Shown piece after piece: positions 1,790 to 52,086 of a stretch of 52,086 nt of DNA. The notes beneath the pieces were generated by a model, which had not been told where the DNA came from, did not search any database, and saw only the letters and a list, made by a program, of their open reading frames with translations. Numbering within the stretch: position 1 is the first letter of the stretch; every line of letters begins with the position of its first letter. The position numbers were made by a program, and so were the translations under genes. Origin of the DNA: Girardia tigrina (taxonomy: Eukaryota); NCBI GenBank assembly GCA_001938485.1, contig MQRK01237347.1, positions 1 to 52,086 on the forward strand, written 5' to 3'.

Positions 1790-3054
1790 TTAGGTGTATA
1801 ACTTAGTTTTTTGGATTTTCTAAGAAATGGTGTAACCTTTGTAATAAGCATTATTTTATAGTCGTACGTACAGATTTTTAAAGTGCTGAAATCGAGGCAT
1901 TGACCTTAAATGCGTCATAAACATTTTTAATCACGTTTTAGTATGACAATTTTCATACCAACAAAACAGCATTTGCGGGATGCACTACTGTTTTGCTTTA
2001 ATCAAAAGAAAAAAGCTGCAGACAGTTTTCGTCTTCTTGAAGAAACTTATGGTCAACATGCACCAACTCAACAGACTTGCGAGAACTGGTATAAACGTTT
2101 AAAAAGTGGAGATTTCGACGTAAGTGACAAAGAGCGTTCCGGTCAACTAAAAAGATTCGAAGATGAAGATTTGGAATCATTACTGAAGGAATATTCTACT
2201 CAAACAGAGAAAGAGTTTGTAAAACAGTTAAATGTTACTCAAGCAGCCATAAGTAAACGTCTACATACTATGAAAATGATTCAAAAAGAAGGAAAATGGA
2301 TACCACATGAATTGAATCAAGCCAACATTGAAAGTCGATTACTGATATTCAATTCATTGCTTACAAGACAACGAAGATGGTCGTTTTTGCATAATATTGT
2401 GACTGGAGATGAAAAATGGATTCATTATGTTAACTCTAAACGCAAGAAATCGTTGGTTCATCGCGGCGAACCGTCCACGTCAACAGCAAACAGAAACATT
2501 CATGGAAGCAAGGTTATGTTGTGCATTTGGTGGGATCAGAAAGGTGTACTGTACTATGAGTTGCTGAATTCGAATGAAACTGTTAATGCAGAACGTCACC
2601 AACAAGAGTTAATGAAATTGAACGATGCATTGAAGGAAAAACGTCATATTCCAGCCAACAAACAGTGCACAGTGATTTTGCTCCATGACAATGCTCGGCC
2701 ACATGTCGCAAAACAAGTAAAAAACACGTTGGAAGCACTTAAATGGGAAATTCTACCGCATGCTGCCTATTCACCAGATTGTGTCCCATCAGATTATCAT
2801 CTGTTCCGATCAATGCAAAGCGCTCTTCAGGATCAGCACTTCAGAAACCAGGAACATATCAAAAAATGGCTGGAACAATGGATCGCATCAAAAGACCGAA
2901 ACTTTTTTCGATGGAATTCATAATTTGCCTGAAAGATGATCGAAAGTCATAATTAACGTTGGAAAATATTTTGATTAGAATAAAACTTATTATGTCATAT
3001 AAATAAACTTGTCTGTTCTGCAAAAAAATCCAAAAAACTAAGTTATACACCTAA
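1790..3054 (+). mobile_element. Full-length mariner (DD34D) transposon, 1265 bp
   Basis: Perfect 30-bp TIRs TTAGGTGTATAACTTAGTTTTTTGGATTTT; TA TSD at 1788-1789 and 3055-3056; contains the transposase ORF. Confidence 0.97.
1943..2923 (+). CDS. Mariner transposase, near-intact but with a disrupted C-terminus
   Basis: WIPHEL, TGDEKW, HDNARPH and YSPDCVPSDYHLF motifs. The normal tail (FFDGIHNLPER*SKVIINVGKYFD*) continues in another frame to ~2977, with a frameshift and a TGG>TGA stop. Confidence 0.93.
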   Translation: MTIFIPTKQHLRDALLFCFNQKKKAADSFRLLEETYGQHAPTQQTCENWYKRLKSGDFDVSDKERSGQLKRFEDEDLESLLKEYSTQTEKEFVKQLNVTQAAISKRLHTMKMIQKEGKWIPHELNQANIESRLLIFNSLLTRQRRWSFLHNIVTGDEKWIHYVNSKRKKSLVHRGEPSTSTANRNIHGSKVMLCIWWDQKGVLYYELLNSNETVNAERHQQELMKLNDALKEKRHIPANKQCTVILLHDNARPHVAKQVKNTLEALKWEILPHAAYSPDCVPSDYHLFRSMQSALQDQHFRNQEHIKKWLEQWIASKDRNFFRWNS

Positions 3055-6559: not shown

Positions 6560-7745
6560 ATTTGATATCCGACACTTTTTAACGATGAATGCTACGTCCA
6601 AAAAGATGAAGTCACAATGGATTTCCCATTAAGATCAACATTGGCATCAATTTTTGTGAAGTCACTTGAGGATAAAATTCATACATACCTTGAGTAAACC
6701 CTGTACTGAACAAATGATATGTTGATGACATACTTCTTGTTTTCAGAAACCAAGCTCTAATAGAACCATTATTAACATTCTTGAATGGTCTTCATCTTAA
6801 TATTAAATTTACTATAAAATCAGAAGTAAATAACAAATTTCTTTGTCTTGACATTCTTGTCATTAGGGTGAATGAGAAATATCATATTGAATTATACACA
6901 AATATAACAAATACATATCTCTACGCACCTCCATCTAAACAAAAATATCATATATATCACAATATTACGGTTACATTGGACAAATTATGTACGTAAACAG
7001 AGGTTAGAAAAGGATTAAACGAAGAAAAATTGAAGAGCACAAACAAATAGTAAAAATACCATATTCTAAAGGTTTTAAATCTTTTAAGAAGAGTATTTAC
7101 GATAATATAATTAAAGTCAAAGTGGTTTCAATGTCATCCAAATTTCAATGCTTCCTCTCTAAAAAATCCTAAATGATTTGTGGATTGTAAGCTTATCTGG
7201 TTTATAAATTTGATTGTCAAGGATGTAAAAACTCATTATTCCTTATTATTGGAGAGATAAATTAGTTAGCATTCCAAAAAAGTCGATCGTGTAAGATTCT
7301 TTATCATTCGTTAATTTGTAAAAATAAAATCTCTACTGTTTCAAAAGATAATGTGTTAGAAAAGGGCTTAGCCTCACATTATGAGCGGTCGTTCTGTGTG
7401 TAAGAGACACTATCAATACGATACTACAACAAAAGATGGTACTATTAATAAACATTCAAAATGGACTAATTAAGCCGTAACAAATCTAAAAAGCTTTATT
7501 TTAATTAAGAAGACATTTTTCAATTATTATCCTATAAGTTTTTAATAATGAAAATAAATAAAAATAAAATAATAATAATAAATAATACAAAATAATAAAA
7601 ATAAATAAATAAATTATTTGCTTAAAACGTTTTTTATAAATCTAACATTAAAACATACAAATATTAAATTATAATTGCTGGTGATGGGAAACGAAATTCC
7701 GAAACATGTTCAATAATTAATTGCTTATAAAAGCTTTAACAAAAT
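6560..7745 (+). mobile_element. Degraded Penelope-like retroelement (RT, GIY-YIG remnant and 3' end with hammerhead)
   Basis: YVQKDEVTMDFPLRSTLASIF (cf. YxQxDGVAMGSPLGPxLA), YVDDILLVF, LNGLHLNIKFT..CLDILV, LVYKFDCQGC; hammerhead-like motif at 7674-7714. Confidence 0.85.
7674..7714 (+). ncRNA. Minimal hammerhead ribozyme, core-mutated (CUGGUGA)
   Basis: ATTG-CTGGTGA-T-GGGAAACGAAATTCC-GAAAC-ATGT-T-CAAT: stem I ATTG/CAAT, stem II, palindromic stem III ACATGT; A6>G in the core. Confidence 0.7.
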
Positions 7746-14994: not shown

Positions 14995-15600
14995 TCACGT
15001 ATTCCTCTGTGCTGTGATATTCCGTGTCTGTGAAGGATTCTGGATAATTGAAATCGATCCGAAAAGTACTTCATATGGAGAGTACTTCGTCGTTTTTTGT
15101 TTTGTCGTTCGTATTCCCAGTTCTACGAACGGTAGTGCTTCACTCCAGTCTAAAATTTTTCTTTCTTCCATTACTGCACTGATCATAGGTTTTATAGTCT
15201 TAAACAATCTTTCTGTTAATCCATTACTTTGTTGGTAGTAAGGTGAGGTATGCGTTTTTTCGATTCCCAGTGCTCGGCAGTGTTCAACAAATAAATTCGC
15301 GGTAAAATTAGTACCCCTGTCGGAATGTATTCTTTCCATGATACCGAATTTGGATATCCAGTGGATCCATAATTTTTTAATCACCTCTGATGTCTATATC
15401 ATTAACTTCGAATGGTTTTTTGGTGACCGAGCTCCGCAACGGTGCTCTGATTCTTCCATTTATGTCTTTGTTTCAAATGCAAGGTGTGCACTTGCTCAGT
15501 GTTTCTTTTATGTCATTCGCCATTTTTGGCCAATAATGTTTTCTTGAGATAGTTTCGATAGTTTTTTCTAATCCTAGGGGCCCAATTTTTTTGTGGTGGT
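14995..15600 (-). pseudogene. Gypsy integrase, partial
   Basis: HHCC-domain remnant HKKIGPLGLEKTIETISRKHYWPKMANDIKETLSKCTPC, then core WISKFGIMERIHSDRGTNF...YYQQSNGLTERLFKTIK...SPYEVLFG. Confidence 0.92.
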
Positions 15601-15967
15601 TTCATATAATCTCCATTCTTTTATGTTTTGGAGATGTATCTTCTCACCTCGTCTTTGTTATTTTTTAGGTTTAGTAACTTCCTTAACCCCTCATCATTCT
15701 CCTACTCCTATTCGTTGTAGCTGCTGTCGCCGTGTATTTCATTGACGATTTTTTCCGAATACTCGCTACGAGTTTTGTCACTTGTGTTGTGCACCGAATG
15801 AAATTATTTTACATTTCTTTTTCTTTTTGGGTCTTCGTGTGAAATGGCGCAATTTTTTCCTTTCTTCTCATTGTGATTGTCTACTTGCATAGGCTTAATA
15901 AAATAGTCAGCACCACCCCACGTATTAATATTCTCTGATACGATAATTCTGTATAATTCAGTATTCT

Positions 15968-16028
15968 GAGTCTCTATCCGGCTGTATCCCGCATTCCGAC
16001 TCCTCAACGCGGACCCACTTAGTTTAAA
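15968..16028 (-). promoter_or_regulatory. Candidate -1 programmed ribosomal frameshift signal (slippery heptamer and pseudoknot)
   Basis: T TTA AAC immediately before the protease stop codon; then stem 1 CCGCGTT/AATGCGG, with loop GAGTC able to pair with downstream GACTC; the -1 frame stays open to 15804. Confidence 0.75.
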
Positions 16029-17470
16029 CTCTCTGCTGTGATCGTCTTCGAAATAAATGGTATCTTCCTATTCTGTATTTCAATACAGTCCTCTCCTGTA
16101 TTTACCTTTGTCTCATATTTCTTCATACTTCTCAATCCGATGAAAATATGTGGAAATATCTTTGGAATAATATTGAAAACATGAGCTGTAATATGTGGTC
16201 CGATTGTCACATTTATTTGAACTTTTCCTATGTACTCTTCCGTAGTACCATTTGCACATGTGATTTTAGTTCTTGAGTCGTAAATTTTTACTCCTGGATT
16301 CCGTTCTCGAATCTTATCAAACAACTCCTGGCGAATGACATTAAGATCACCACCTGTGTCAAACATAACCTTCACTGACATATTCGCTGTGTTGTACCGC
16401 AAGATTGATTTGTTTCTAGCTTTCTCTGGTCTAGATTTCGATATTAATTTAGGTTCGTATTTATATAAATTTTTTCTTGGATGTGCTCCGCGGTTGTTAA
16501 TGTAATTGCTATATGCTTCCTCCAACGTTGGCTTTTTGTTGAAAATCATCTTCGATTTTTCTTTACTACATCCCGATCCGTGAATAATCTTAATCTGTTT
16601 GTCTTCTGATACGACATTTTCCGTCTCCGGTGGCCCATCGCTCAAAATCTCTTCTTCTTCTTGGAAATATCTTAATCGTTTGATGCTACAATCTTAATGA
16701 ACGTGATTTGTCGATCCGCACCCTTAGCATTTTCGTTCCTTGCAGAATTTAGCGATATGTCCTATCTTCTTGCAGTTAAAACACGTTTTATTCTCCCATT
16801 AATATGGTTGTATGTCTTTAGTTGCGTATCTAGACTCGTATTGTTTGTATTGCGGTTTATTTCTTGTTCCCGCTATTATCGCCTTTAGTCGAATGATCTC
16901 GTTCTTCAGTTTCTCGTTTTCGAGTTTTAACTNNNNNNNNNNNNNNNNNNNNNNNNNNNNNNNNNNNNNNNNNNNNNNGTCATCGACGAGTCTTGTTGGC
17001 TCTTGTTCATCTTTGATAAGATCGATTGCTTCTTCAAGTGATTTTGGTTTAAAAAGACGGACGATCGTTGCCATTGTCCTATATGTCAAACCTTCCAAAA
17101 AAGGCTTCAATCATTATGTCTTCTTTCATTTCCTTTATTTACGGACTTCCAATGCGTATTCTTTTGGTATAGTCACTGATGCTTTCGTTTTTTGCTTGGG
17201 TAATTTGGAACAAAGGTCTAATGTTGCTTATTTTGGACTCTTTCTTCTCCAACATTTTTAAAAGTCGAGTATAGTCCTCGATATTCTCCGATTCGTGATT
17301 GTAGGATGGATCACTTTGAATTTCTTTGTTAATTTCCTCATCGAAATATTTCTTGAATAATTGCAATTCCTCCTTCCTTTCATTTTCACCGAATGTGAAT
17401 AACTTAACAAACTCTTGAACGTTTCTTACATGCTCCTTGATTGCAGTTGAACTTGCAGAATGTTTTTTGT
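16019..17470 (-). pseudogene. Gypsy gag-protease, disrupted
   Basis: Gag pieces (LFQITQAKNESISDYTKRI; FLEGL..KPKSLEEAIDLIKDE); zinc knuckles CFNCKKIGHIAKFC and C*GCGSTNHVH*DC near 16690-16785; aspartic protease VKVMFDTGGDLNVI in ORF 16019-16645. Confidence 0.9.
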
Positions 17471-17940
17471 AAACGAAAAGTTTTGTTTCTTTTTACCTAA
17501 AGAGAAATTCGTCCAAAAAATTATTTTACCTGCTCGTGACCTCATGTTATATTAGGACAATAATATTAATAATATGATAACCAATATTCAATAAATGTAA
17601 TTGACGATTAATTTATATATTTGCCAAATACCACATTACATCGATTATTAAAACAAATATTCAATTATAATTAATCATGCTTTTTTAATTATTCCTTTTA
17701 ATATCACAGTTATATAGTTCATAGTACTATCTCTGAGTTCAACTTACTTATTCTTCTGCAACTTTCATTACCAAAAACATGACTAAATGCTGTAAAGACT
17801 TACATTTTTTCCCGAATTTCAGTTATAACTGTTAAGAGAACTCACATATTTATAACAAAATTTATTGCTATCATAATTTGGATTATCTTTATGACAATCC
17901 GTATTAATACCTTCGCTGAAATTCATCTATCATTGTTTAC

Positions 17941-28370: not shown

Positions 28371-29869
28371 CCTTATTATCTCTTATGATTCGGGTTTAGG
28401 ATTATCATATCTAGCTTATTTCAAATAATCATTTTAAAAGTTATTTAAATTCTAAAAATTTTCGTGTTGTTAAATAACAAGTTATTTTAAAATATTTGTT
28501 TAGCAATAATGCCTTCATTTTGAGAATAATATTTTACAATTATATTATTTGGATAAATGATCTAAACCCATTAACTGTTATACAATAGCTACAACTAAGA
28601 TATCTGGAAACATCAGTAGGAAGAAAAAAATTCCTTTGATGTTTTTAATGGCTACATAATAAACAAATGAATCATTTGAATACATCGTATTCCATTCTTG
28701 AACCTGAACCGATTTTGGATGGGGAAGCATCCCAATCCACCCCAATTTTCCTTCACGCCCATATCAAGATTACTCAGTACTCAAACAGCGGTGACTCACT
28801 TTACTGTTTATGAAGCATAAAAGCCGTGTCAAAGAGAAAATTAGAAATCTGAGTAGCATTAACAGTGCAAATATACGTAATAAAATAAAACATCATTAGT
28901 TTTGCATTTTTAATGAAAATTAAAACTCAAAAATAATTTCAGTCTCTTGAGGTCTCTGTTAATATTTCTTATTTGTTTTTGTGAAAAACGCATATTTATC
29001 TATTTTTCTTTTCTTTTGTATTTTTTTTCATTTAACAAAAATGCTAATTACAAAATTAATTGAAAAAAAAATCTAAAAAATGTTTGAGATTTATAAAATC
29101 ATTTTTCTAATGTGTTTTTTTGAGAAATAAAAAATAAAACTCTTTTTGCAAAAAAATCACTATTAGTCTTTTGATTGTATTTTACAAACATTTATCATTA
29201 CTTAAAAAGTTATTTTATTAAAACTGATTCCATAAGGATCAATGATTATGGTAAAATATCTGTAAAACGAAGGGGAAAGGATGTTTCTTGATTACAAATT
29301 TAGAAATGTGAAATCAGTCATGGATCAATTTGTGAAATAAAATGTCCATGGTCATCTTCATGGTTTAAATAAATTTAAGAAAAAGATAACTTAAGAAAGC
29401 TCACAAAGGACATTCTTGGAGCATTTGTTTTATGACGACGCAGACATGTCGTATATATTGACATATAAGGCGACTTTGTAAAAGATGAGAGTCAACATTC
29501 CGCCCATAAATTAATGCATTTTACGCTAACTGGATGGAAGAGATGTGTGGTAAACAATTGGTAGGTACAAATGTAAGTGAATTAGAAAACAGTCGGCATA
29601 AAAACATGTAAATGTTTTTCCTCTATGTTAGTATTTTAATAAATAACACTAAATATTCTATCAATAATGCATTTTAATTGAATATCTCGGCAATACAAAT
29701 GTTACTGAATTACCAATTTTGTACTTCATTTATTTAATTATGATTAATTACTTTCAATAGATTTTAATAAAGCTTATTGTACATTATTTGCATTATAAAT
29801 ACCAACTGGTCTACTTTTCTCTATATTAATTGAATTTTCCTATTGCGATAATATTAAAGTAATGGAACT

Positions 29870-30110
29870 ATTAAAACGAAAATGATGAAGCGAGTTAAAA
29901 GCGTTTGAAATAGCAAATGCCGCTGCTAGCAAGTTTGACACAACTGAGATAACACTGAAGAACTGGAGAAAATTGAAATATTTTAGGAAAGATGTCACTG
30001 AAAAAATATGTCGAGACCAGAAATTACTAGATGGCCGAGACGTGAATATTAAATCGCAGAATGGTTGCAGAAACCTTGACAAAATGGTTTTATCATCACT
30101 AGATAAATGA
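29870..30110 (+). mobile_element. Possible pogo/Tigger N-terminal HTH relic
   Basis: ANAAASKFDTTEITLKNWRK resembles the pogo 'NRAAARKFGVSExxVRxWRK' HTH; weak. Confidence 0.35.
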
Positions 30111-30119
30111 TACAGATAA

Positions 30120-30760
30120 ATTATAATCTTATTCATGGCACAACAGACTGAAATATTCTTAGATCTCATACCTGCCACAATATAACAAGCAGGTGTTCCT
30201 TTCAATGAGCGCCCAATCTTATTCCTCATTATCGCATTAAAACCCACTTCATCAATGAATATTATATTCTTCGGATCTGATTGAGTGATTATTTCATAAA
30301 AACTTTCTATATATCTTTGTCTTTGATCAAAAACCTCAGGATTAATTCTTCGTGTAGGTATAAGTGTCACTCTTTTTAAAGTGTATAAGTCTTTCATATA
30401 TATACCAATAGTTTTTTCACTTAAAGTTTTATTATATTTTTCGGTAATTTTTCGCTTTAATTCTTTTAAGGTGATGCTGCAGTCATCATCAAGACATGTC
30501 TTAATAATGGCTGCTTGCTCTGGCTTATTAAAAATATTTGCAATCGATTTAATAGATTTGCCTGAATCGTAAGCATCCACCATTAATTTTCTCATTTCGT
30601 TTGATATTGCCACTAAGGATGTCTAAAATGTAACAAAAAACTTTACTTTAATTTTGTAAAATAATTTTTATGCATATAAAATAGTTTTTATAATCTTTAT
30701 TTTAGAAATTGTATAACTTTTTTATTACGAAATGAAGGTTCCTCGATTACGAAATGATAG
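30120..30760 (-). mobile_element. IS630/Tc1-like transposase, 3'-truncated
   Basis: ORF from 30613: HTH MAISNEMRKLMVDAYDSGKSIKSIANIF, SITLKELK, YTLKRV, IIFIDEVGFN, RSKNISVCCAM. Similarity stops at ~30125; the rest of the ORF is read-through. Confidence 0.85.
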
Positions 30761-39430: not shown

Positions 39431-39671
39431 TATCAATTTTTCCGGTGTAAGTCAAGTTTCAACAATGAACCATGCCTGTAGTAATGTAACCGCCAATGTT
39501 AATTGGGATTCATCTTTAAAGCATTCCCATCAACCAACAAAGGACTGGCGTCAGTTTTATCATGATGATGAACACAGATTAATTGCCCGTTACGCAAGCA
39601 CTCTCGTAGCCAGTCGATCTACTCATTCCGGCCTTGATATGCCCCATACATCCATCAACCAAGAAAATACT
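39431..39671 (+). CDS. dyb: Dystrobrevin exon (syntrophin-binding region)
   Basis: ttcag| INFSGVSQ...FYHDDEHRLIARYASTLVASRST...NQENT |gtaagt; DDEHRLIARYA matches DTN DEEHRLIARYA. Confidence 0.92.
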
Positions 39672-40222: not shown

Positions 40223-41063
40223 CAGGGGCGGGCAAACGGTCGATCGCAGACGTTTTTTTCAGAATATATATTTAATAAATATTTAACAATAGATTTATCT
40301 CAGTAAAAAGAATCGTAAAAATAACATGGAAATACACAAATTTTCTTTAAGATTTTAAATTAAAACTCATAATTCAACGTTTAAAATTAAAATATACTTA
40401 AAGTTTAAATTCATGGCAATTTAAATGATATTTGATTTTGTTTGAATATTCAAAATTTGCTATTGATTCGTGTATTAAAATTAACCGCTCAGCATCTTAT
40501 ACTTCGAAAGTCTTCGAGACAATCTAAGTTAGCCACTGAAGCATTCTATGTGATCCCCTATGTTTTGGGAAAACATAAAAAGTCTTATCGTGACGGTGAA
40601 GTTTTCGTGATGGAAACTTTCCTTGAGAGCAGTGAAAAATTATTTAACAACTTTAAAAATAAAAACAAAATTCTTAATGCAATTAAAGATTTGCACCTTT
40701 CTTACCGAACTATAACTCGACGTAATAAAAATATGATTGGTAATGTAACTCAAAAGTTGGAAGATCACATACAAAACTACAGCTTCTTTTTATTACAGTT
40801 GGACGAATCAACTGATGAAATTGATACTGCACGATTAATTATGTTTATAAGAATGATATTCTCCAATATTTCGAGAAAAGAGGAATTTTTACCAATTCTT
40901 CCGATGAAAGGTACGACGCGAGAAGAAGACATTTATTACATTTACATTATAATAAAATTAATAAATATATTATGTTATATTTTCTCATTTCTGAAAGAGT
41001 TGATCGCAGTTAAATATTAAAAATTTTAGTCAATCCTACAACGTTTAAGTGTGCCCACCCTTG
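40223..41063 (+). mobile_element. Internally deleted hAT (Buster/SPIN-like) element
   Basis: TIRs CAGGGGCGGGCAAAC and CAAGGGTGGGCACAC; perfect 8-bp TSD GTTTATAT (40215-40222, 41064-41071); transposase remnant KKSYRDGE..LSYRTITRR..LQLDESTD..LIMFIR..EEFL..MKGTTREEDI. Confidence 0.94.
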
Positions 41064-41189
41064 GTTTATATAGTGTGTTCCTAATATTATTTAGGTTTTT
41101 TTTATTTTTTGTGACTCAGAAAATTCATATCACAAAAACTTTAAGTACACACAATCATCGGTATCAAATTATGTACATACTTACAAATA

Positions 41190-42685
41190 ATTTGAACATT
41201 TTAAATGCATCCTTTTTAGATTTAGGTTTCAAAATTAACATCGGTAAAACCAAAGTTTTGAACCTAAACGGAGATACTCGGATCCTTACTGCTGGGCACC
41301 AGCTTGAGGCCGGTATTGAGTGGGTCTCTAGCCTTTGTTACCTAGGATCCACGATCTCTTCAGTGGGAAATGTGGACGCGGAAGTGAAAGAAAGAATTAA
41401 AAAAGGAACCCAGAAGATCCGGGATTGAGACCAGTGCTGAAGAGCTCCAAACTGAGTATGAAGAATACGAACTAAGTAATCAACGCATGCATATTCTCCG
41501 TAGTCTACTACGGCTGTGTAAACTAGAGAACTGCGGACAAGAACATGAGGAAATTGCATGCCCTTCATAACCTATGCACGCGCATAATTAGGAAGAAACA
41601 CAAAATTGAAAAGATCCGTATCTTTGAACATCTTGGACATTAGACTCCCACATCCCATGGACATTATCGCGAGTAAACGGCTTACTTTCCACAGTAAGAC
41701 GGAAACTTCAGAGGAGTACGAGACAATCAAACGAATCTGGAAGGGAGAAATACAAATGGGGAAAAAGATCAGTGGGAGAAAGAAGCAATCAATTTCAGAA
41801 TGTCTTCGAGTGGACATACAGTGGCTATTTGGGAATGATGCGGTGTATGGAGATTTCATTAACCACATCATTCACAGAGATCCTACTGTATCGAGGGAAA
41901 CACACATAAATTCCTTTTTTCGATCAGGAAGACTCAATAGGACAAAAACAACTGTACCGAAGCTGATCAACGAGAGAGACAAACGTCACCAATGTCCAGT
42001 AGAAAGCTGCTACATGGAGTTTGCCGAAAAGAAGGAGTTGAACAGACACATGAAAAGGGACCATGCGGTGTCCGCTTCCGCTAATCCTGATCAGTTCAAT
42101 GAGATACAACAACAGCAATTGCCATTCCCATGTACACTATTCAAAAAGTCGTACAAAGCGAAGGGGTGGCTGACCAGGCACCTCTACCGGGATCATAATT
42201 TGGAGGAGACAGAAGAAATTGGAGAACCGACAATGACACCGGCGCAAACCAGTACAACTACAGAAGAAAGAGTCGTAGAAAACCTAAAAATTCCAGCAAC
42301 CAGATTCAATCCGTGACAGATCCCCCGACTATCTCGACGGCGGTAGAAGAAGCGATAGGTACTGAAGAAACACATCTGACTTTTAGGATTGCAGACCTAA
42401 CTGAAAGGGGGGAGTTCAAATGTCCCTTTCGCGGCTGTACGAAGTCCACGAATACAACCAAAGGTATGCAGAACCATGGATATACAACCCATGGGTGGTC
42501 ATTTCTCACAGGGAACTCGAAAAGATCTCGGAGACCGAAACTATCCGATCCCGTAGGAGGCCTATCGGGGGCTACTAGTGATTCTTTAGTTTGGGTGGAC
42601 CCTCTAAAGAGCCTAGAGACTCAATACCATTCGAAAGAGATGGGAGACCCACACAATTACATATTCATTTCAGATTAGAAAAAAA
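41190..42685 (+). mobile_element. 5'-truncated RTE-like LINE with three C-terminal C2H2 zinc fingers
   Basis: RT C-terminus LGFKINIGKTKVL..CYLGSTIS..DAEVKERIKKG, VYYGC; fingers CPVESCYMEFAEKKELNRHMKRDH, CTLFKKSYKAKGWLTRHLYRDH, CPFRGCTKSTNTTKGMQNHGYTTH; frameshifts present. Confidence 0.85.
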
Positions 42686-43922: not shown

Positions 43923-45188
43923 TTAATTTTCTTTTTTTCATAAATATATATTTTTATATAACTTCTGGTGAATCCGGAACAATATATCTTTTATAATAAT
44001 ATATGTATCCGGTTTTACTATCATCTTCATATCACTGATTGTTAGCTTTTTTACTGATTATATATGTGAAGTGGATGATTATGGGATTTAATACGTAAAA
44101 TTAATCGAAAGCTCTTAACAAATTTGTTGAGAGTGCCGTTTGAACATTAATTTTAGGATCACAAAATTATATTAACAAAGCCTCATATGACACTTTCTCT
44201 AAACAATTGTTAAAATGCTTGCACAGAATTTTGAAATTTTTTATACTCAAGTTACATTTATAAGTTTTCCTATGCTCAGCATTATGACTCCTACTGCCCT
44301 CTTAAAACGTGCTCTTGGACTCGTTTGCAGGGTACAGTGACACACACATATTTATATATGTGTGTGTACGTGTGAAAATTTGAATTAAACAACTATTTTA
44401 ATATCAAGATAGTTATCTTTTGGTTTTTATCTTCCTTGGTTTTATCTTTTTTATAAATCATTATAAAAATAAATTTATAAAATTTATAAATCAACAAAAA
44501 TTTCTCGGGAAATTTGATTAAAAAAAAATTTTCCGTTTTAGTAAAATAAAACAAACATCTAAAATTTCCTGCTTATTTATTCGTTAATCTCATTGATTTA
44601 TTAAAATAAAAAAGAATTATAAATTAAAGATTAAATAAAATTATAATTAAGTTAGTAATAATTTTTCGTTTAAAATTAGTTAAATAATATTTTAAACAAC
44701 ATAAAAAAAGAAATTTAGACAGATTTTTTGTTTTTTAAAAACGTATTTGTCGTTTAGGTTTTCCATTTTGTAATGAGTTTCTAGTGAACTTTGAAAGCAT
44801 TATTTCGGTAAAGCTCGAGATTCGTTTGATTCCAGAAAGAAATGAAGAATGTTTTTTCTTTTTTTTCTAAGTTGCTTTTATCAATAAAAAGACATTCAGA
44901 CTTATCCATCTAGAAAATTGGTTTTGATAATGATTTAGCTAATGATTATGCTAATATCTTTCTTCTCTTCCTTTAGTTTATAACCAGAAGAATTCATTTT
45001 TTTCAATTTAACTTGTATGTCATTTAAAATGGATTTTATTTTATTAAAAATAATGCAATTATTGTTGTCTTTTTCTTTTTCCTTGGTTACTTTAAATGAA
45101 ATAAATCCCAATTTTTACCGAACAAGTAAAGTATCCTTGTTGTTGTTTTAATGTTTTTTCCTTAATAAACGATCTTTTTGTTTTTCAG

Positions 45189-45298
45189 GACGCTCCCAAA
45201 ATCGAAGTACATTTACGATCAGACCTCTTCAACCAGAATATGCCTACTTCAGCCAAATCACAGAAAGAACTCATTGCAAAATTAGAAGCTAAAAATAA
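45189..45298 (+). CDS. dyb: Dystrobrevin exon (start of coiled coil 1); absent from the ORF track
   Basis: tttttcag| DAPKIEVHLRSDLFNQNMPTSAKSQKELIAKLEAKN+AA |gtaat; resembles DTN 'QQRQLIAELENKN'. Confidence 0.92.
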
Positions 45299-45426
45299 GT
45301 AATAATACTTTTCAAATATTAAATTATATTATTTATATTATACATTAATGATCTCAGTCCTAGATCTGTTTTTTAGGTGTATGTAATTTAGATGACGAAA
45401 ATGGAGAACATTTTTTTTTATTTTAA

Positions 45427-45658
45427 CCCTTTCGCAGCTGCTGGGACACATATGTCCCAGTGAATGTTTAAAAAGGCTGTTGGGACATATATGACCCATC
45501 ATAAAAGACGAATGGGATATATTTGTCCCAACCTCCCCAGCCCGCCCCCTGAATAAATTTCCAAAAAAAACTTAAATAATAAATTTCAGACCGGAATAAA
45601 CATTATATATTTAACAAAAATTATCTATAACTTAAAACGGAAAGCCGCTGCGAAAGGG
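45427..45658. mobile_element. piggyBac-type MITE, 232 bp
   Basis: Perfect 12-bp TIR CCCTTTCGCAGC; TTAA TSD at 45423-45426 and 45659-45662; three internal GGGACA(C/T)ATATGTCCC-like palindromes. Confidence 0.93.
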
Positions 45659-45809
45659 TTAAGGAAAAGTTTATACTTTTGGATTGTAAGTATACTATTA
45701 GAATGCTTTTTAAGGAAAAAGTTTTTAAGAAAAAGTTTTTTAAGAAAAAGTTTTTTTTAAGGAAAAGTTTATGCTTTTGGATTGTAAGTATACTATTAGA
45801 ATGCTTTTT
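45659..45809 (+). repeat. Local ~52-bp duplication separated by short TTAAGAAAAAGTTTTT tandem units
   Basis: TTAAGGAAAAGTTTAT(A/G)CTTTTGGATTGTAAGTATACTATTAGAATGCTTTTT occurs at 45659 and 45757. Confidence 0.9.
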
Positions 45810-48154
45810 GATTTCTAGTTAAAAGTAGTCGTGGCCTAAAGGGTTACATACGACAATAATTTTATTTATTTAATATTAGTAGCTATTTAGTGATTTTTGG
45901 TATTGGTAGATTTAATTTGGTGTAACTGCGCCCATGAATGTTTTCTTTTACAAGTAGCAATCAGGGAATTTCCAAGCCTAAACCTGTGTGACAATAATAA
46001 TGTCCGGAAGAATCTTCTCCGGACTATACAATACATTATTGTAAATAATTTTTATTAAGGTTATGGTAAGGTAAGGTTTGTGCTTTGATTATAAGTAGGT
46101 TTAGGATTAACAGTTTTATGGTTAAAATAGAGGTTTTAGTTAGGATTAAATTTAAGATGATATTTAGAGTTCCAAATATAATATACGGAAAACTAAAGAA
46201 AAAATATTTATTTTAATGAGTTCAATATATAAATCTGTTTGAACAATTGTGGCCTGATAAACCATCTACGAAAAAATAAGTATGGTGAATCGTCATTTAA
46301 AAAGTAAGCGGGAATACCAAGGTTCTGAGAGTAAATTATAAATGCGACTAATTGGAGATCTTTAGATCTTATGTTAATTCATCAACGCAAATATATTCTC
46401 ATTAGTTACTATCGTCTGGCTTTTCGAGACTTGAATTCGAATCAAAGCAAGAACTTTCCTCATGGATTCACGATTCTAGAACAGTTTTATGTAGTTAAGT
46501 GAAAAACAGAAAAAAATATGTTTTCTTTGGCACTGACAGTAGTTTCAAATTATACTTAACTGCATTTGAAGAAGTTTATATCGTCTTCTTAAAACAAGTA
46601 ATAATTATGACATAGAAGTTTTTAACAAGTTTGTACACGCGCCATAAAATATGAGTTTATAAATTGTTTTTTTGTTGTTATTTGATACATCATTTAAGTT
46701 TCTTATTTTCAGAAATTCCCATTTTTTTATAATATATCATTGTCTTCCGAAGACATCCTCAAGATATCAAAACCTAATAGAGGTTAGGTGCAGGTTAACT
46801 AACCTGTACTATAAGAAAGTGAAAAGATGGATCATTAAGGACTGAAAAACTTATATTAATTAATTGCATTTTTTAAATGAAGAAGTGACAATTTAATCAT
46901 ATTAAATATGAACGATTTTTTTTAATTTAAATTTTATATAACCCATTTTAAATGAAATTTATAAAACATATTACAATTCTACGAAATTTTTCATTTATGT
47001 TTGCAGAATAATTAAATTTTGGGAAAAGAAAATGCATTTAAGAGAGTGTTGAATATTTGATGTAGAAATTTTTCTTTACTCTTTTATACAAATATCTTTC
47101 AATTTTCAAATTATTTCCAAAGGACGCATAATGTATGATATGACAGACACTTGCTAGGGATCTTGACCTCTGATGTTACAACATTGTTTATTTGCAAGTA
47201 CTGTTGAACTTCATTAATGAATTGTTTGTATATGGAAATAAGATTTTTATAATCTGAATTTTCTTTAATATTTAGTCTGTAAATTTTTTAAGGTTATAAA
47301 AAGTTTTTTTTATCAGAAGACCTTCTTAAAAATAAATTTTCTTTAGATTCATATATTTGTAGAAATATTTGGTCCTAAGAATTGTTTGATTACCATTGAA
47401 ATTTATTAATTGAAAAGTTTAATGTTACAAGCAATGTTATGTTTCATCATAACAAGTTCAAGGGTATCTTCCATTCTTTACTTCCAAATTCTCTACAGTT
47501 GTATAGTTTTTAATATAAAACTGAAATTGAAAAACACTTATTTTATTAAAAAGAGTAATTCGACCAATAATTTAATTTTTAATTAATATTTTTTTATCTA
47601 ATTTAAAAAAGAAAATTGTACATTTTCGGGAACAAAAATAATTATTATCGTTGGGTAAATATTATCTAAAAGCCTTTCTGGGATATTCTGTCAACGAAAT
47701 CAGACAGAATTATTTGAAATAATAATTATTAAAATCAGACATACGGAAGTGTTGGTCTGAAACCTGAGAATGACCGAGATGAAAGCAATCGAAATTGACG
47801 AACTGAAAATGAATAGAATACACAAAAGAATACTTTAAATTTGTAAAAAAATATATTTAAAAAGAATTTACTCGTAAATATATTTTATTCCATCAACTCG
47901 GCAATAGTGAATATAGAAGTAATAAATTACACTTAGAGATGATTTGTTAAGTCTTTCTTAAAGTATTCTTTTATTTTATATATATATATATATATATAAC
48001 ATTTACTAGGGTACATTGAAAATTTTACAGAATTATTATCTTTCATAATTTCTTCTTTGTTTTTTTTAATAATCTCCTTCTATTTCATTAAAAAGTTTCA
48101 AAATCATTATATTAGAGCAATTATTAGAACAATTATTCAAGTCTTCTTAAATGG

Positions 48155-48330
48155 TTATTGAGATTTGTGTTTACTTCTTTTTCTATGAAAATTATTTCCG
48201 TAAGACGTTTTTTGTTGTAGAAATAGAGGGAAGTCGGAAGAAGCCAAATCAGTCAAATTATGGTAGAGGTTGCAATAGTCCGTTGTTTCGGGTAATTTAA
48301 TTTTCCCATAATATCTTGAAGAATTTATCA
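48155..48330 (-). mobile_element. Mariner C-terminal relic
   Basis: DLASSDFPLF (cf. YSPDLAPSDFHLF); otherwise decayed. Confidence 0.4.
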
Positions 48331-49031
48331 TCTTTGTACTCAAACCAGATATATTTGTATGAATTTGTAAATCCAATTGACCTCAAAGTTTAGTATATTA
48401 TTAATTGTAAATGGTTTCCATTAATAGTAAACAATAATTAATTTTCCATTAGCAAAAAATCTGACTGACTCCAAAACCTTTCTAATTATTTTACATAGAC
48501 ATTGACTTGTTGGGTTGTTAGAACTCTTATGCTTTTATTTTTTTATTTATATATGGCACTAGGCGTAGAATATATAACCCATGTTTTATCTATAGTAACA
48601 TATCGTAGACAGAAATCGATTTATTTGAGTTAAAATGATCATGAGTCCTTTGAGAAATTCTAATTCTCTAAAGATTTCAATCAATTTTCAAAATACATTG
48701 CATCATATTTGGAAAATGCTTTTCCATTCCAAATTACACAGTGAGCATATAAACTGTTCTTTGATTTGAAATACACATTCTCTTAGTTCTTTTGGAGACC
48801 TTAGAATCAACAATCTTCCATAACTTTATCGGGGATATTTTGAGGTGATTCCACGCGTTATGAAAGTTTAGGCTCTAAGGACTATTTAAAATTTGGTCAC
48901 CCACTTAATGCAAAGTTGTAAAAATTATATACTTAAATTTACAATTAAAATTAATTAAACAGTATAATACTTAAAGATACATATTTGTATAAAACAAGAT
49001 AAAATTCTAAAAAATATATAATTGTTTTCAG

Positions 49032-49233
49032 AGAAATTTTGCGAGAAATTCAAAGATTGCGTCTTGAACAGCAACAAAACGCGTCTGCCGTAAATGCGGC
49101 TACAGATAAAACGAATAGTGCAATAAATAATGATTCCGTTACAGGAATCGTCAGTAACCCAAATCTGCTTGTAGAACTGAGGAATCTTCGACATCGAAAA
49201 GATGAGTTGGAGAACCGTATGACAAGTTTGCAA
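49032..49233 (+). CDS. dyb: Dystrobrevin exon (dystrophin-binding coiled coils)
   Basis: ttttcag| [15 protein letters not shown]...[26 protein letters not shown] |gtacaa; resembles DTN '[13 protein letters not shown]...[26 protein letters not shown]'. Confidence 0.95.
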
Positions 49234-50344
49234 GTACAATTTTTTATATGTTTGTAATTCAAAAGACATTGTTATACAGATTATCATTACATACGAATTT
49301 CCATTTTCTGTTCAAAGTCCTTAAATTTATAATACAAATACAGTTCAATTAAATTTAATGAAAATAATATTTTAATCTTAAATAAAATAATTGTTAGATT
49401 TTGATAATTACTACAATATACTTAGAATTTTTAATGGTACATTAATAATGGCTGTCCTGAAATCCTTACAAAGATTTTAATATTATAAATATTATTGTTT
49501 TTAGCTCCAGAAACTTATTAAGTGTTTCATACATCTTAATACTTATTTTTTGGTTGTCTCGGTTTAAATAATCTCTTTACTGATGAAATTAAAAAAAATA
49601 TTTTTCTATTTGAAATTCCTATTTTTCTTTATTTATTACTAAATTTTGTCATTTTATTCACTGAAAGAGGACTTTTAATTTTTGAAGATATTCTTTCTGG
49701 ATGTTTTCAAGGAGGAAAACGTATACCAATTAAAATCCCTGAAACATTCTCCTTTAATTTTTGAAATGTTATTGAAGCCAAAGTCATTCTTATTAGATTC
49801 GAAATCATCAATTGAAGTCATAACAAGTTAAAATATATTTTTATAAGAATAAAGATTTTTAAAACCATTTTTCGAGGAACTATTTTCTTATTTTGTTAGA
49901 ATCAGAGATAAATAAATATAAATATAAATATGATTTTATAATCACCATAAATTTATGTAAACATTTTTTTTATTAAAAACTTTATCTCAACCTATTAATT
50001 TTAGTATTATTAATACTTATTATTAATTAAATTCTTATTTTTTTATTAAAATCGTGTCGTAAATTATTAAATTCAAATCCTTTATATTTTTATTAAAACT
50101 TTTTTGCAACTTATTAATTTTAAGTTCTTATTTCTTATTAAAACGTTATTTTATGTTTATTAAAATTTTAAAATCTCTATCTTATAACATTATTTTTTAA
50201 CTTATTATATATTTATTAGATAATAATTTATTTTAATAAATTATTTGTTCATCGTTATTAACACTTTTAAATAATTTATATTTTATGCTATTTTAAAATT
50301 TTAAAAATCTATAAGTTCGCTAGCCCTAACAATTCTAAAAAGCA

Positions 50345-50530
50345 ATTTTTTTCAGAAATCAGGACGTTTCTTTGTTGAAAATGGTTTTTTATTTTTCAAC
50401 TCTTCTTCTAACTCAACTTGATAGTATGAATTTCCAAATTAATGGTACTTAAATATTTTTCTCCATTCAATGTATTAACATATCATCCCCATTTGTCATT
50501 GAAAATTTTCCAAGAGTTGATTTATTTTAA
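50345..50530 (-). mobile_element. Gypsy reverse transcriptase relic
   Basis: Across frameshifts: DDML-TLNGEKYLSTINL-GNSYYQVELEEELKNKKPFST (cf. DDxLDxLxGAKYFSTIDLGNAYYQVxLxEESKxKTAFST). Confidence 0.7.
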
Positions 50531-51198
50531 CATTTGTGTACCAGTGAGGACAAGGGAACATTAGTTCCTTGTCAGGCTCCTCGGAAACATTGCTCGTGAA
50601 TCTTGTTGTCTGATGTCATTGATATAAGAGAATGTTGGCATTAAATATGTTCTTCAGTGAAATATTTTTCAATGAAAGTAATATCAATTTTTGAAAAATG
50701 AATAATCACATTGTCTCAATACTGTTCCTACTATGGTCAAATAATCATTTATATAATTATGCTCAGTACTTGAAATGTTAAATAACAACAATAATAACAA
50801 AAGTAATTATGTTTTAAATGGTATAATTTATAAATTTCTTTAGCCAAATGTCAGTAATAAATTCTTTAATTTGGAAAATCAGGAACTAGATTCACATGAA
50901 AGTGACTGAACATCTAAATAGTATTTCGGTAGATAAATACTAAAATGGTTGTTAATTACTTTTAAAAATAGTTTGGCTTTAATCTGATTTTGGTCAAAAA
51001 AACAATAAGGATATATTATATTTGATTAAAAAAAATTCACCTAATATTAAAGTAAAAAAAATCTGTTCGACAATAAATTATATGTTGTTAAAAATTTAAT
51101 TTTGCTGAAATTGATAAATAAAATTTCTTGTTGACTTAAATTTCTTTTACTGATTATTTTGAAAAAAAATATTTTAAATATATTTCATCGATCTGTTT

Positions 51199-51232
<34 letters not shown>

Positions 51233-51293
51233 CAAATAATTTAAATTTCAACCGGGTTAATAAAATAAAAAAAACATTTTTCGAGACATTTAT

Positions 51294-51330
51294 TCAAAAC
51301 TAGTTTCGCCATATTGGCATCTTCAGTTGA
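51294..51330 (-). ncRNA. Minimal type I hammerhead ribozyme, intact core
   Basis: TCAA-CTGAAGA-T-GCCAATATGGC-GAAAC-TA-GT-T-TTGA: stem I TCAA/TTGA, stem II GCCA/TGGC, palindromic stem III ACTAGT, GUU cleavage triplet. Confidence 0.88.
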
Positions 51331-52012
51331 CTGATTGTAATTTCAGATTATGGTCCTTTTATATGGCGGTAGACTGTTGCGCAATAATACTCAATTTAAG
51401 TCTTTTTTTTATTTATTTCAATTTAAAAATTAACAAGAATAAAAAAAAATTCTAAAACATCAATGATAGAAATTTAAAAATTCAAGAAAAAAAAGAAAAA
51501 ACAGCTAAATCATTTTATTGTTATTATTAATTTAAAAGAAAAACGAAAGACAAAAAAACTAAGAATTAAAATATTTGAATATAATTTGAGTAATTAACAA
51601 TACTTCTAGGATATTATCCTCTCCTTATAATTATCGATATTTTTACATAAAACTTTAAATTCCCTATCACTCTCCATATTTTCTTGATCCCTACAATTCA
51701 ATTGAATTATATTGAATATGAACATATATATGAGAATGGAACTGTTTCGACTCGATTGAGTATGTTCAGCAATTCTAGTTCGAAGATGACGGTTTGTCTC
51801 TCCAATGTACAAGGCTTCGCACTTGTGACATTTAAACTGATATACTAGATTTGCCTCCACACTCAATGGAGTTTTTAGTTTATTAGAAAAGTAACTTGTT
51901 AATTTATCCCTGTTAATTTTTAAAATGTAAATGAAAAAAGCCTTAAAATTGAGTATTATTGCGTAACAGTCTACCGCCATATAAAATGACTTAAATCTGA
52001 AATTACAATCAG

Positions 52013-52049
52013 TCAACTGAAGATACCAATATGACGAAACTATTTTTAA
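52013..52049 (+). ncRNA. Hammerhead ribozyme copy, mutated in all three stems
   Basis: TCAA-CTGAAGA-T-ACCAATATGAC-GAAAC-TA-TT-T-TTAA; four substitutions relative to the 51294-51330 copy. Confidence 0.75.
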
Positions 52050-52086
52050 ATAAATATTTCGAAAAACGACTTTTTATATATATATA

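What the first reader, a model, noticed from the sequence alone, without database searches (positions are those of the whole stretch)
51240..52075. Penelope element with inverted terminal repeats carrying one intact and one broken hammerhead ribozyme
Seen: a GIY-YIG remnant lies between ~180-bp inverted repeats, with (TA)n tracts on both sides. The minus-strand repeat has a complete minimal hammerhead (CUGAAGA..GAAA, palindromic stem III ACUAGU, GUU site). The plus-strand copy has 4 substitutions hitting stems I, II and III. Established: PLE pseudo-LTRs carry minimal hammerheads thought to act as dimers, and 5'-truncated PLEs can have inverted pLTRs. Inference: the spliced-out intron could fold back into a ~180-bp duplex, a possible dsRNA or editing substrate.
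Basis: partly seen in the sequence, partly recalled or inferred. Interest (0 to 1): 0.7.

Follow-up and report, generated by a model that had tools for sequence, protein, structure and literature searches.

The report
Decayed Penelope stub in dystrobrevin intron
This is an ordinary, old, truncated copy of an abundant Penelope-type jumping gene with back-to-back ends, lying in an intron of a dystrobrevin-like gene; one of its two self-cutting RNA motifs has likely just decayed by mutation, a pattern that is common among copies of this family.

Summary
An ~840-bp 5'-truncated Penelope/Poseidon-type element (GIY-YIG stub, minus strand) has ~180-bp inverted arms (86% alike) and TA tracts at both ends. 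It carries an intact minimal hammerhead (51330-51294, minus) and a copy with four lesions (52013-52049, plus). The asymmetry is not special. The intact 36-mer occurs 37 times in the genome. Of 16 outward-facing hammerhead pairs, 7 have exactly one broken motif, as independent decay predicts. Opposite-strand minimal hammerheads 100-700 bp apart and inverted 5'-truncated copies are in print (PMC4209133, PMC8557442). New here: spliced contigs show the element lies in an intron of a plus-strand dystrobrevin-like gene. The pre-mRNA therefore carries the broken motif in sense and the intact one only as antisense. A ~150-bp fold-back is predicted; editing or small RNAs were not testable. Selective loss of the host-sense ribozyme is not excluded, but the signal is weak (p 0.02-0.08, post hoc). 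One other locus shares the exact inversion junction, perhaps by ectopic recombination. The scan found this kind before on other DNA (844 notes). Low interest.

The parts
45189..45298 (+). exon of the dystrobrevin-like host gene
   Evidence: contigs of runs X1-X3 splice 45298 to 49032 with GT..AG ends
49032..49233 (+). exon of the dystrobrevin-like host gene (coiled-coil part), ends at a GT donor
   Evidence: PDB 9c3c_V dystrobrevin, E 4e-6; boundaries
49234..52086 (+). intron that holds the element and runs off the contig end; the next exon is on other contigs
   Evidence: loose end at 49234 in X1, X3, X6 maps behind an AG acceptor on C101081/C124132/C191762; no such exon in 49236-52086
51206..51232 (.). 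(TA)n tract, likely the target
   Evidence: sequence; family ends abut TA runs far above background
51233..51259 (-). degenerate ~27-nt one-sided 3' tail
   Evidence: aligns to the tail of other copies and is absent from the inverted arm
51260..51443 (-). 3' terminal (direct) pLTR arm
51294..51330 (-). intact minimal type I hammerhead; predicted cut 51298/51297; antisense to the host gene
51600..51895 (-). GIY-YIG endonuclease remnant, broken by a 21-nt insertion, a 37-nt deletion and a premature stop; no RT left
51895..51896 (.). head-to-head inversion junction, identical to the base at locus C211351
51896..52075 (+). inverted 5' arm (second, shorter 5'-truncated copy of the 3' end)
52013..52049 (+). 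broken hammerhead (4 substitutions: 52025, 52034, 52043, 52048); sense to the host gene
52075..52086 (.). (TA)6 running into the contig end

Best explanation
This is a 5'-truncated, head-to-head insertion of an endonuclease-bearing Penelope/Poseidon-type retrotransposon between TA tracts in an intron of a dystrobrevin-like gene, and its second hammerhead was likely broken by neutral mutation after insertion. Shown: anatomy, family, intron position, strand and lesions. Inferred: the element's RT/endonuclease, supplied in trans or by the parent copy, cut a (TA)n site and copied the RNA's 3' end from both DNA strands. One cDNA reached the endonuclease gene and kept the tail; the other stopped after ~180 nt without a tail; the two were joined head to head. 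Both arms would have started with the family's intact hammerhead, which serves the parent element (likely as a dimer through the stem III palindrome), not this stub. The host pre-mRNA would fold the arms into a ~150-bp imperfect duplex; this is predicted to be a by-product, like inverted repeats in any intron.
For: The family is abundant: 101 matches from 40 scored of 3913 first-look candidates, plus 143 RT matches. Longer copies carry RT (RVT_1 E 7e-10) with DKG and YVDD, then GIY-YIG with CCHH and no Cys linker. The intact 36-mer has 37 exact copies, control 0, and is the majority base at every position in 91 distinct rows. Among 68 rows not picked only by that exact pattern, 37 are intact and 3 have 4 or more substitutions. 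G and C sites change as often inside the motif as outside it (G 0.067 vs 0.065; C 0.057 vs 0.062). 16 outward pairs in 78 segments: 7 both intact, 7 one broken, 2 both broken; independence predicts 6.9/7.2/1.9 (my arithmetic). The copy is old: end branch 0.046 against a median of 0.018, outside the main young clade. Junctions of other inverted copies are scattered (33 distinct rows, 2 of them TA-run artefacts). TA adjacency: 28 of 46 untailed and 35 of 40 tailed ends, background 3.2%. In print: inverted 5'-truncated copies with a one-sided tail (PMC8557442; PMC3846280); a PLE protein cuts and extends both strands in vitro (PMC11167929).
Against: All 4 hammerhead lesions fall in the arm that is sense to the host gene. 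Polarised counts are 4 inside / 2 outside for that arm and 0 / 7 for the other (binomial p 0.079, Fisher p 0.021; about 0.06 by my arithmetic if three adjacent changes are one event). A and T sites change less inside the motif than outside (A 0.017 vs 0.028; T 0.016 vs 0.043), which may be subfamily or alignment noise or some constraint. The two-strand mechanism is inferred: junction microhomology was not enriched in 23 other junctions (P 0.25), and arms within a locus were on average no more alike than random pairs (0.906 vs 0.897). The exact junction shared with C211351 shows that this copy's history may involve more than one event. The locus sample is biased by my queries.
Confidence: 0.82

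Rival explanations
1. Selection disabled the hammerhead on the host's transcribed strand, because a sense ribozyme would cut the dystrobrevin-like pre-mRNA; the antisense copy was free to stay intact.
For: The broken motif is the host-sense one. Lesions cluster in the motif in that arm only (Fisher p 0.021). Only 3 of 68 family motifs carry 4 or more substitutions.
Against: Single locus, post hoc; p 0.079 within the arm. The motif is GC-rich, and G/C sites mutate faster than A/T sites. One lesion would suffice. Single minimal hammerheads showed no cleavage in vitro (PMC4209133). In the pre-mRNA the motif is predicted to be paired with the other arm (34 of 37 positions in a window offset by 4 nt).
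Confidence: 0.07
2. The unit is a re-mobilised non-autonomous fold-back derivative (a small family of its own), not a one-off insertion.
For: C211351 has the same junction to the base and shares 3 of this copy's 5 body variants near it. The two are sisters in the body tree at 91/74, not starred. pLTRs can mobilise enclosed DNA in trans (PMC3846280).
Against: Only one other independent locus was found: the third hit, C58711, is a rearranged version of the C211351 locus (40 of 285 candidates scored). The 3' arm at C211351 is of another subtype. There the unit sits right behind the 5' part of a longer copy that ends 43 bp past the same position, separated by 234 bp of another repeat; this fits ectopic recombination or conversion better. 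A local 13-of-14-nt similarity between the antisense 3' UTR and the ORF (read) could also make this junction recur; C237500 and C104859 join close by.
Confidence: 0.08
3. The intronic duplex has been co-opted as a functional dsRNA (A-to-I editing substrate, siRNA source or splicing modulator) for the dystrobrevin-like gene.
For: Intron position shown. Host-sense fold: -251.7 kcal/mol, 151 long-range pairs, longest stack 41 bp. Three of the four lesions are G>A and would form A-C mismatches, which ADAR favours (recalled knowledge).
Against: The arms have drifted to 86% and nothing shows compensation. Any inverted repeat folds this way. The duplex starts 2 kb from the donor site and far from the acceptor.
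Confidence: 0.03

Closest known systems
Dual opposite-strand minimal hammerheads of truncated metazoan PLEs (Cervera and de la Pena 2014, PMC4209133; parts 1-2 of 4 of the text read)
   Same: Minimal type I motif with an extra nucleotide between A9 and G10.1, a G10.1-C11.1 pair, short stem I and a palindromic stem III; two motifs on opposite strands 100-700 bp apart (here about 680).
   Different: Stem II is only 3 bp here (7-8 bp in the Schistosoma families; 6 bp in D. virilis). This family's motif was not assayed.
EN+ PLE insertions with an inverted 5'-truncated copy, one-sided 30-40 bp tail and (TA)n bias (Craig et al. 2021, PMC8557442, passages; Arkhipova et al. 2013, PMC3846280, passages; PMC8969392, passages)
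   Same: Head-to-head inverted arms, tail at one end only, 5' truncation, microsatellite neighbours.
   Different: No RT, no direct upstream pLTR and no visible TSD (contig end). Craig et al. tie (TA)n targeting to the Zn-finger linker, which this family lacks.
Penelope/Poseidon clade, e.g. PAc of Anolis (Frangieh et al. 2024, PMC11167929, passages)
   Same: RT then C-terminal GIY-YIG with CCHH, no CX2-5CxxC linker, hammerhead in the pLTR, tail.
   Different: No RT tree against reference clades was built here; PAc's ribozyme cleavage was shown, this one's was not.
Non-LTR retrozymes (bioRxiv 10.64898/2026.07.22.740005, part 1 of 5 read)
   Same: Type I hammerheads of PLE origin in non-coding units.
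   Different: Retrozymes are head-to-tail tandem repeats with same-strand ribozymes; this is a single inverted pair around coding DNA.

Membership tests
EN+ Penelope-like element | single ORF with RT followed by C-terminal GIY-YIG | tested here: met
   met by longer family copies (RVT_1 E 7e-10, GIY-YIG E 8e-7; DKG, YVDD and EN motifs in one frame of L093); this copy keeps only the EN stub
EN+ Penelope-like element | pLTRs in direct or inverted orientation | tested here: met
   inverted arms; 16 outward and 2 direct pairs in the family sample
EN+ Penelope-like element | optional 30-40 nt tail at one end | tested here: met
   degenerate 27-nt tail on the direct arm only
EN+ Penelope-like element | target-site duplication | not testable with these tools
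   the contig ends inside the right TA tract
Penelope/Poseidon clade | CCHH motif in the endonuclease | tested here: met
   L093 and L101; the last His is lost in the window copy
Penelope/Poseidon clade | no CX2-5CxxC linker, DKG motif unmodified | tested here: met
   linker translations hold no Cys; DKG in L093 and L096; criteria from PMC8557442
Penelope/Poseidon clade | RT phylogeny places it in the clade | not tested
minimal type I hammerhead (left copy) | CUGANGA and GAAA core, NUH site, stems I and II, extra nucleotide after A9 | tested here: met
   H17 is U, A or C in 91 of 91 rows, never G
minimal type I hammerhead (left copy) | palindromic stem III allowing dimers | tested here: met
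   ACUAGU; 84 of 93 motifs in the fetched loci have a palindromic hexamer, of four different sequences, with a pattern that did not ask for it
minimal type I hammerhead (left copy) | self-cleavage as a dimer | not testable with these tools
   needs an in vitro assay; the monomer's predicted fold is not unusually stable (z -0.72)
minimal type I hammerhead (right copy) | stems I-III paired and palindrome kept | tested here: not met
   pairs kept: 3 of 4 in stem I, 1 of 3 in stem II, 1 of 2 in stem III; hexamer not self-complementary
Rfam hammerhead families | covariance-model match | tested here: not met
   no hammerhead hit at E<=10 in 48000-52086
non-LTR retrozyme | tandem same-strand units, each with a hammerhead | tested here: not met
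   the two motifs are on opposite strands; no such tandem at the locus
non-autonomous fold-back (MITE-like) family | many copies with the same ends and junction | tested here: inconclusive
   one other independent locus with the same junction but a different 3' arm subtype; only the best 40 candidates were scored

The most novel reading that the evidence does not exclude
Hosts purge hammerheads that land in sense inside introns. Of the two ribozymes delivered by this one insertion, only the one on the dystrobrevin-like gene's transcribed strand was knocked out. Inverted Penelope insertions would then be built-in paired tests showing that minimal hammerheads do cut pre-mRNA in vivo.
Probability: 0.07. 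Interest if true: 0.55.

Novelty: new member of a known kind. Interest (0 to 1): 0.17.

Why it matters
As a locus it matters little: it is one of many decayed copies with a published architecture. The family has some use as material. Each inverted insertion delivers one hammerhead on each strand at the same time and place, so with a gene annotation the set would test whether minimal PLE hammerheads cut host RNA in vivo, which PMC4209133 left open. Its head-to-head junctions also record how PLEs join two cDNAs.

Tried and rejected
Rfam scan: no hammerhead. Homologue search with the host exon against longer proteins: 109 candidates, none at E<=0.001. PDB searches with two other exons found no dystrobrevin; their assignment rests on splicing or, for the ~39450-39670 exon, on the loose end before 45189 and my recall of the dystrobrevin motif. 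Run search: no listed holder is on record as RNA. The four runs laid are contigs with guessed RNA status; over the element they show only other family copies with 3-8 differences, which says nothing on whether this copy is expressed or edited. A second lay, on a longer family copy, returned nothing, so whether family RNA runs through the cut site is open. Microhomology as a general rule at inversion junctions: rejected (23 junctions used of 33; mean score 3.87 vs 3.71, P 0.25). Ten rows were left out: 4 picked by my own query, 2 TA artefacts, 4 with gaps over 20 nt. The reference handles the poly-A/T 3' UTR poorly. Arms of one locus being closest relatives: true for few pairs only; no mean difference. 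C211351 as the continuation or allele of the host intron: a 103-nt match proved to be an LTR-like repeat with 357 candidates; rejected. The 234 bp beside the C211351 arm as this copy's missing flank: it is another repeat (40 matches); not traceable. A fossil of A-to-I editing as the cause of the lesions: they are G>A and G>T, not A>G; rejected. Segmental duplication: the left flank is single-copy. The organism was not determined; a paper search with a guessed group name gave nothing useful. No claim is made that anything is absent from print. Supplements of the papers were not opened, and they may list this family's motif.

Full report
Observation. Two qualifiers apply. The right TA tract is only six units, because the window is a whole contig and ends there. 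Rfam does not score the motif. A descriptor for the minimal hammerhead, written with the motif in view, matches once against 0.01 expected. Better evidence that the motif is real comes from its relatives: H17 varies among U, A and C but is never G in 91 rows, and related motifs in the fetched loci keep a palindromic stem III through four different sequences (84 of 93).

The family. The 846-bp query had 3913 first-look candidates in the 1.43-Gb assembly; 40 were scored, giving 101 matches. An RT piece from one relative gave 143 matches. Longer copies have RT with DKG and YVDD, a Cys-free linker and a GIY-YIG domain with CCHH. By the criteria in PMC8557442 (passages) this fits Penelope/Poseidon; no reference tree was built. 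Family ends abut TA runs (28 of 46 untailed ends, 35 of 40 tailed ends, 10 more not scorable; background 3.2%; the element's own last bases add to the tailed count). The window copy keeps about 660 bp of the 3' end on the minus strand, with a degenerate tail, plus a ~180-nt inverted copy of the same end without a tail. It is among the older copies (end branch 0.046, median 0.018, 65 rows).

One intact and one broken. The intact motif is simply the family's common state: 37 exact copies of the 36-mer, control 0. From 98 aligned arms I dropped 2 of another family and 5 duplicates. Among the 68 rows not picked only by the exact pattern, 37 are intact, and 24/20/14/7/3 carry 0/1/2/3/4-or-more substitutions. 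G and C sites change at the same rate inside and outside the motif; A and T sites change less inside. Of 16 outward-facing pairs in 78 segments, 7 are both intact, 7 have one broken and 2 have both broken, matching independent decay (6.9/7.2/1.9 by my arithmetic). One of these pairs joins arms only 69% alike, and the sample is biased by my queries. The arrangement is published: dual minimal hammerheads 100-700 bp apart on opposite strands (PMC4209133) and inverted 5'-truncated copies with one-sided tails (PMC8557442; PMC3846280).

Host context. The frame at 49032-49233 matches dystrobrevin (E 4e-6) and ends at a GT donor. Contigs of runs with guessed RNA status splice 45298 to 49032 (X1-X3). 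They continue from 49234 into sequence absent from the window (X1, X3, X6; two studies), which lies behind an AG acceptor on three other, identical contigs. The element is therefore intronic and antisense to the gene. The pre-mRNA would hold the broken motif in sense and the intact one only as its complement. The two motifs cannot form a ribozyme dimer with each other, being on opposite strands. The host-sense strand is predicted to fold into 151 long-range pairs (-251.7 kcal/mol, longest stack 41); the other strand gives 163 pairs, with 35 of 36 hammerhead bases locked in the duplex (z -22.5). No data on editing or small RNAs could be had.

Is the sense copy broken on purpose? Polarised against six related arms, the host-sense arm has 4 changes inside and 2 outside the motif, and the other arm has 0 and 7 (37 and 82 columns; binomial p 0.079; Fisher p 0.021). 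Three of the seven are adjacent, the test is post hoc, G sites are the fastest to change, and single minimal hammerheads did not cleave in vitro (PMC4209133). I give selection 7%.

The junction. Other inverted copies join at scattered places (33 rows), and microhomology is not enriched there (23 used, P 0.25). C211351 has the same junction as this copy, shares 3 of its 5 nearby variants and is its weakly supported sister; C58711 is a version of that same locus. At C211351 the 3' arm is of another subtype, and the unit follows the 5' part of a longer copy that overlaps it by 43 bp. Ectopic recombination or a recurrent junction explains this at least as well as re-transposition of a fold-back unit. 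It is unresolved.

Mechanism. Most likely the element's enzyme cut a TA tract and primed reverse transcription of the RNA's 3' end from both strands, and the two truncated cDNAs were joined head to head. This is an inference, helped by the report that a PLE protein cuts and extends both strands (PMC11167929, passages). Self-priming on an antisense template is the published alternative (PMC3846280). The stub has since decayed, and the fold-back is a by-product.

Verdict. A new member of a known kind; interest 0.17.

Noticed in passing
window 1931-2923 (+): Nearly whole mariner/Mos1-type transposase frame of 330 aa (PF01359, PF17906).
   Followed up: no
window 14995-17492 (-): Pieces of an LTR retroelement: integrase core and aspartyl protease.
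   Followed up: no
window 29843-30622 (-) and 41030-42675 (+): A DDE_3-type transposase remnant, and a retroelement-like 3' piece with C2H2 fingers.
   Followed up: no
window 44170-44337 and 6718-6996: Further short decayed pieces that read like a PLE endonuclease end and an RT; judged by eye, and the 6718 piece had no Pfam hit.
   Followed up: no
L111-L113 (C101081, C124132, C191762): The next dystrobrevin-like exon lies on three contigs identical over 2.2 kb, so the assembly is partly redundant.
   Followed up: partly
L002:878-2350 (C211351) and L117 (C58711): Chimeric locus: 5' part of a long copy, 234 bp of another repeat, a TA tract, then an inverted unit with the same junction as the window's; a rearranged version lies on C58711.
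   Followed up: partly
fetched loci, e.g. L010, L063, L093: Several other minimal-hammerhead families with stem III palindromes ACAUGU, ACGCGU and AUAUAU and longer stem II sit beside copies of this family.
   Followed up: partly
family-wide: A family without the Zn-finger linker still ends at (TA)n in most copies, although PMC8557442 associates TA targeting with that linker.
   Followed up: partly
family arms: On the sense strand G>A (116 over 21 G columns) and C>T (78 over 17 C columns) are the commonest changes; no strand test was run.
   Followed up: no
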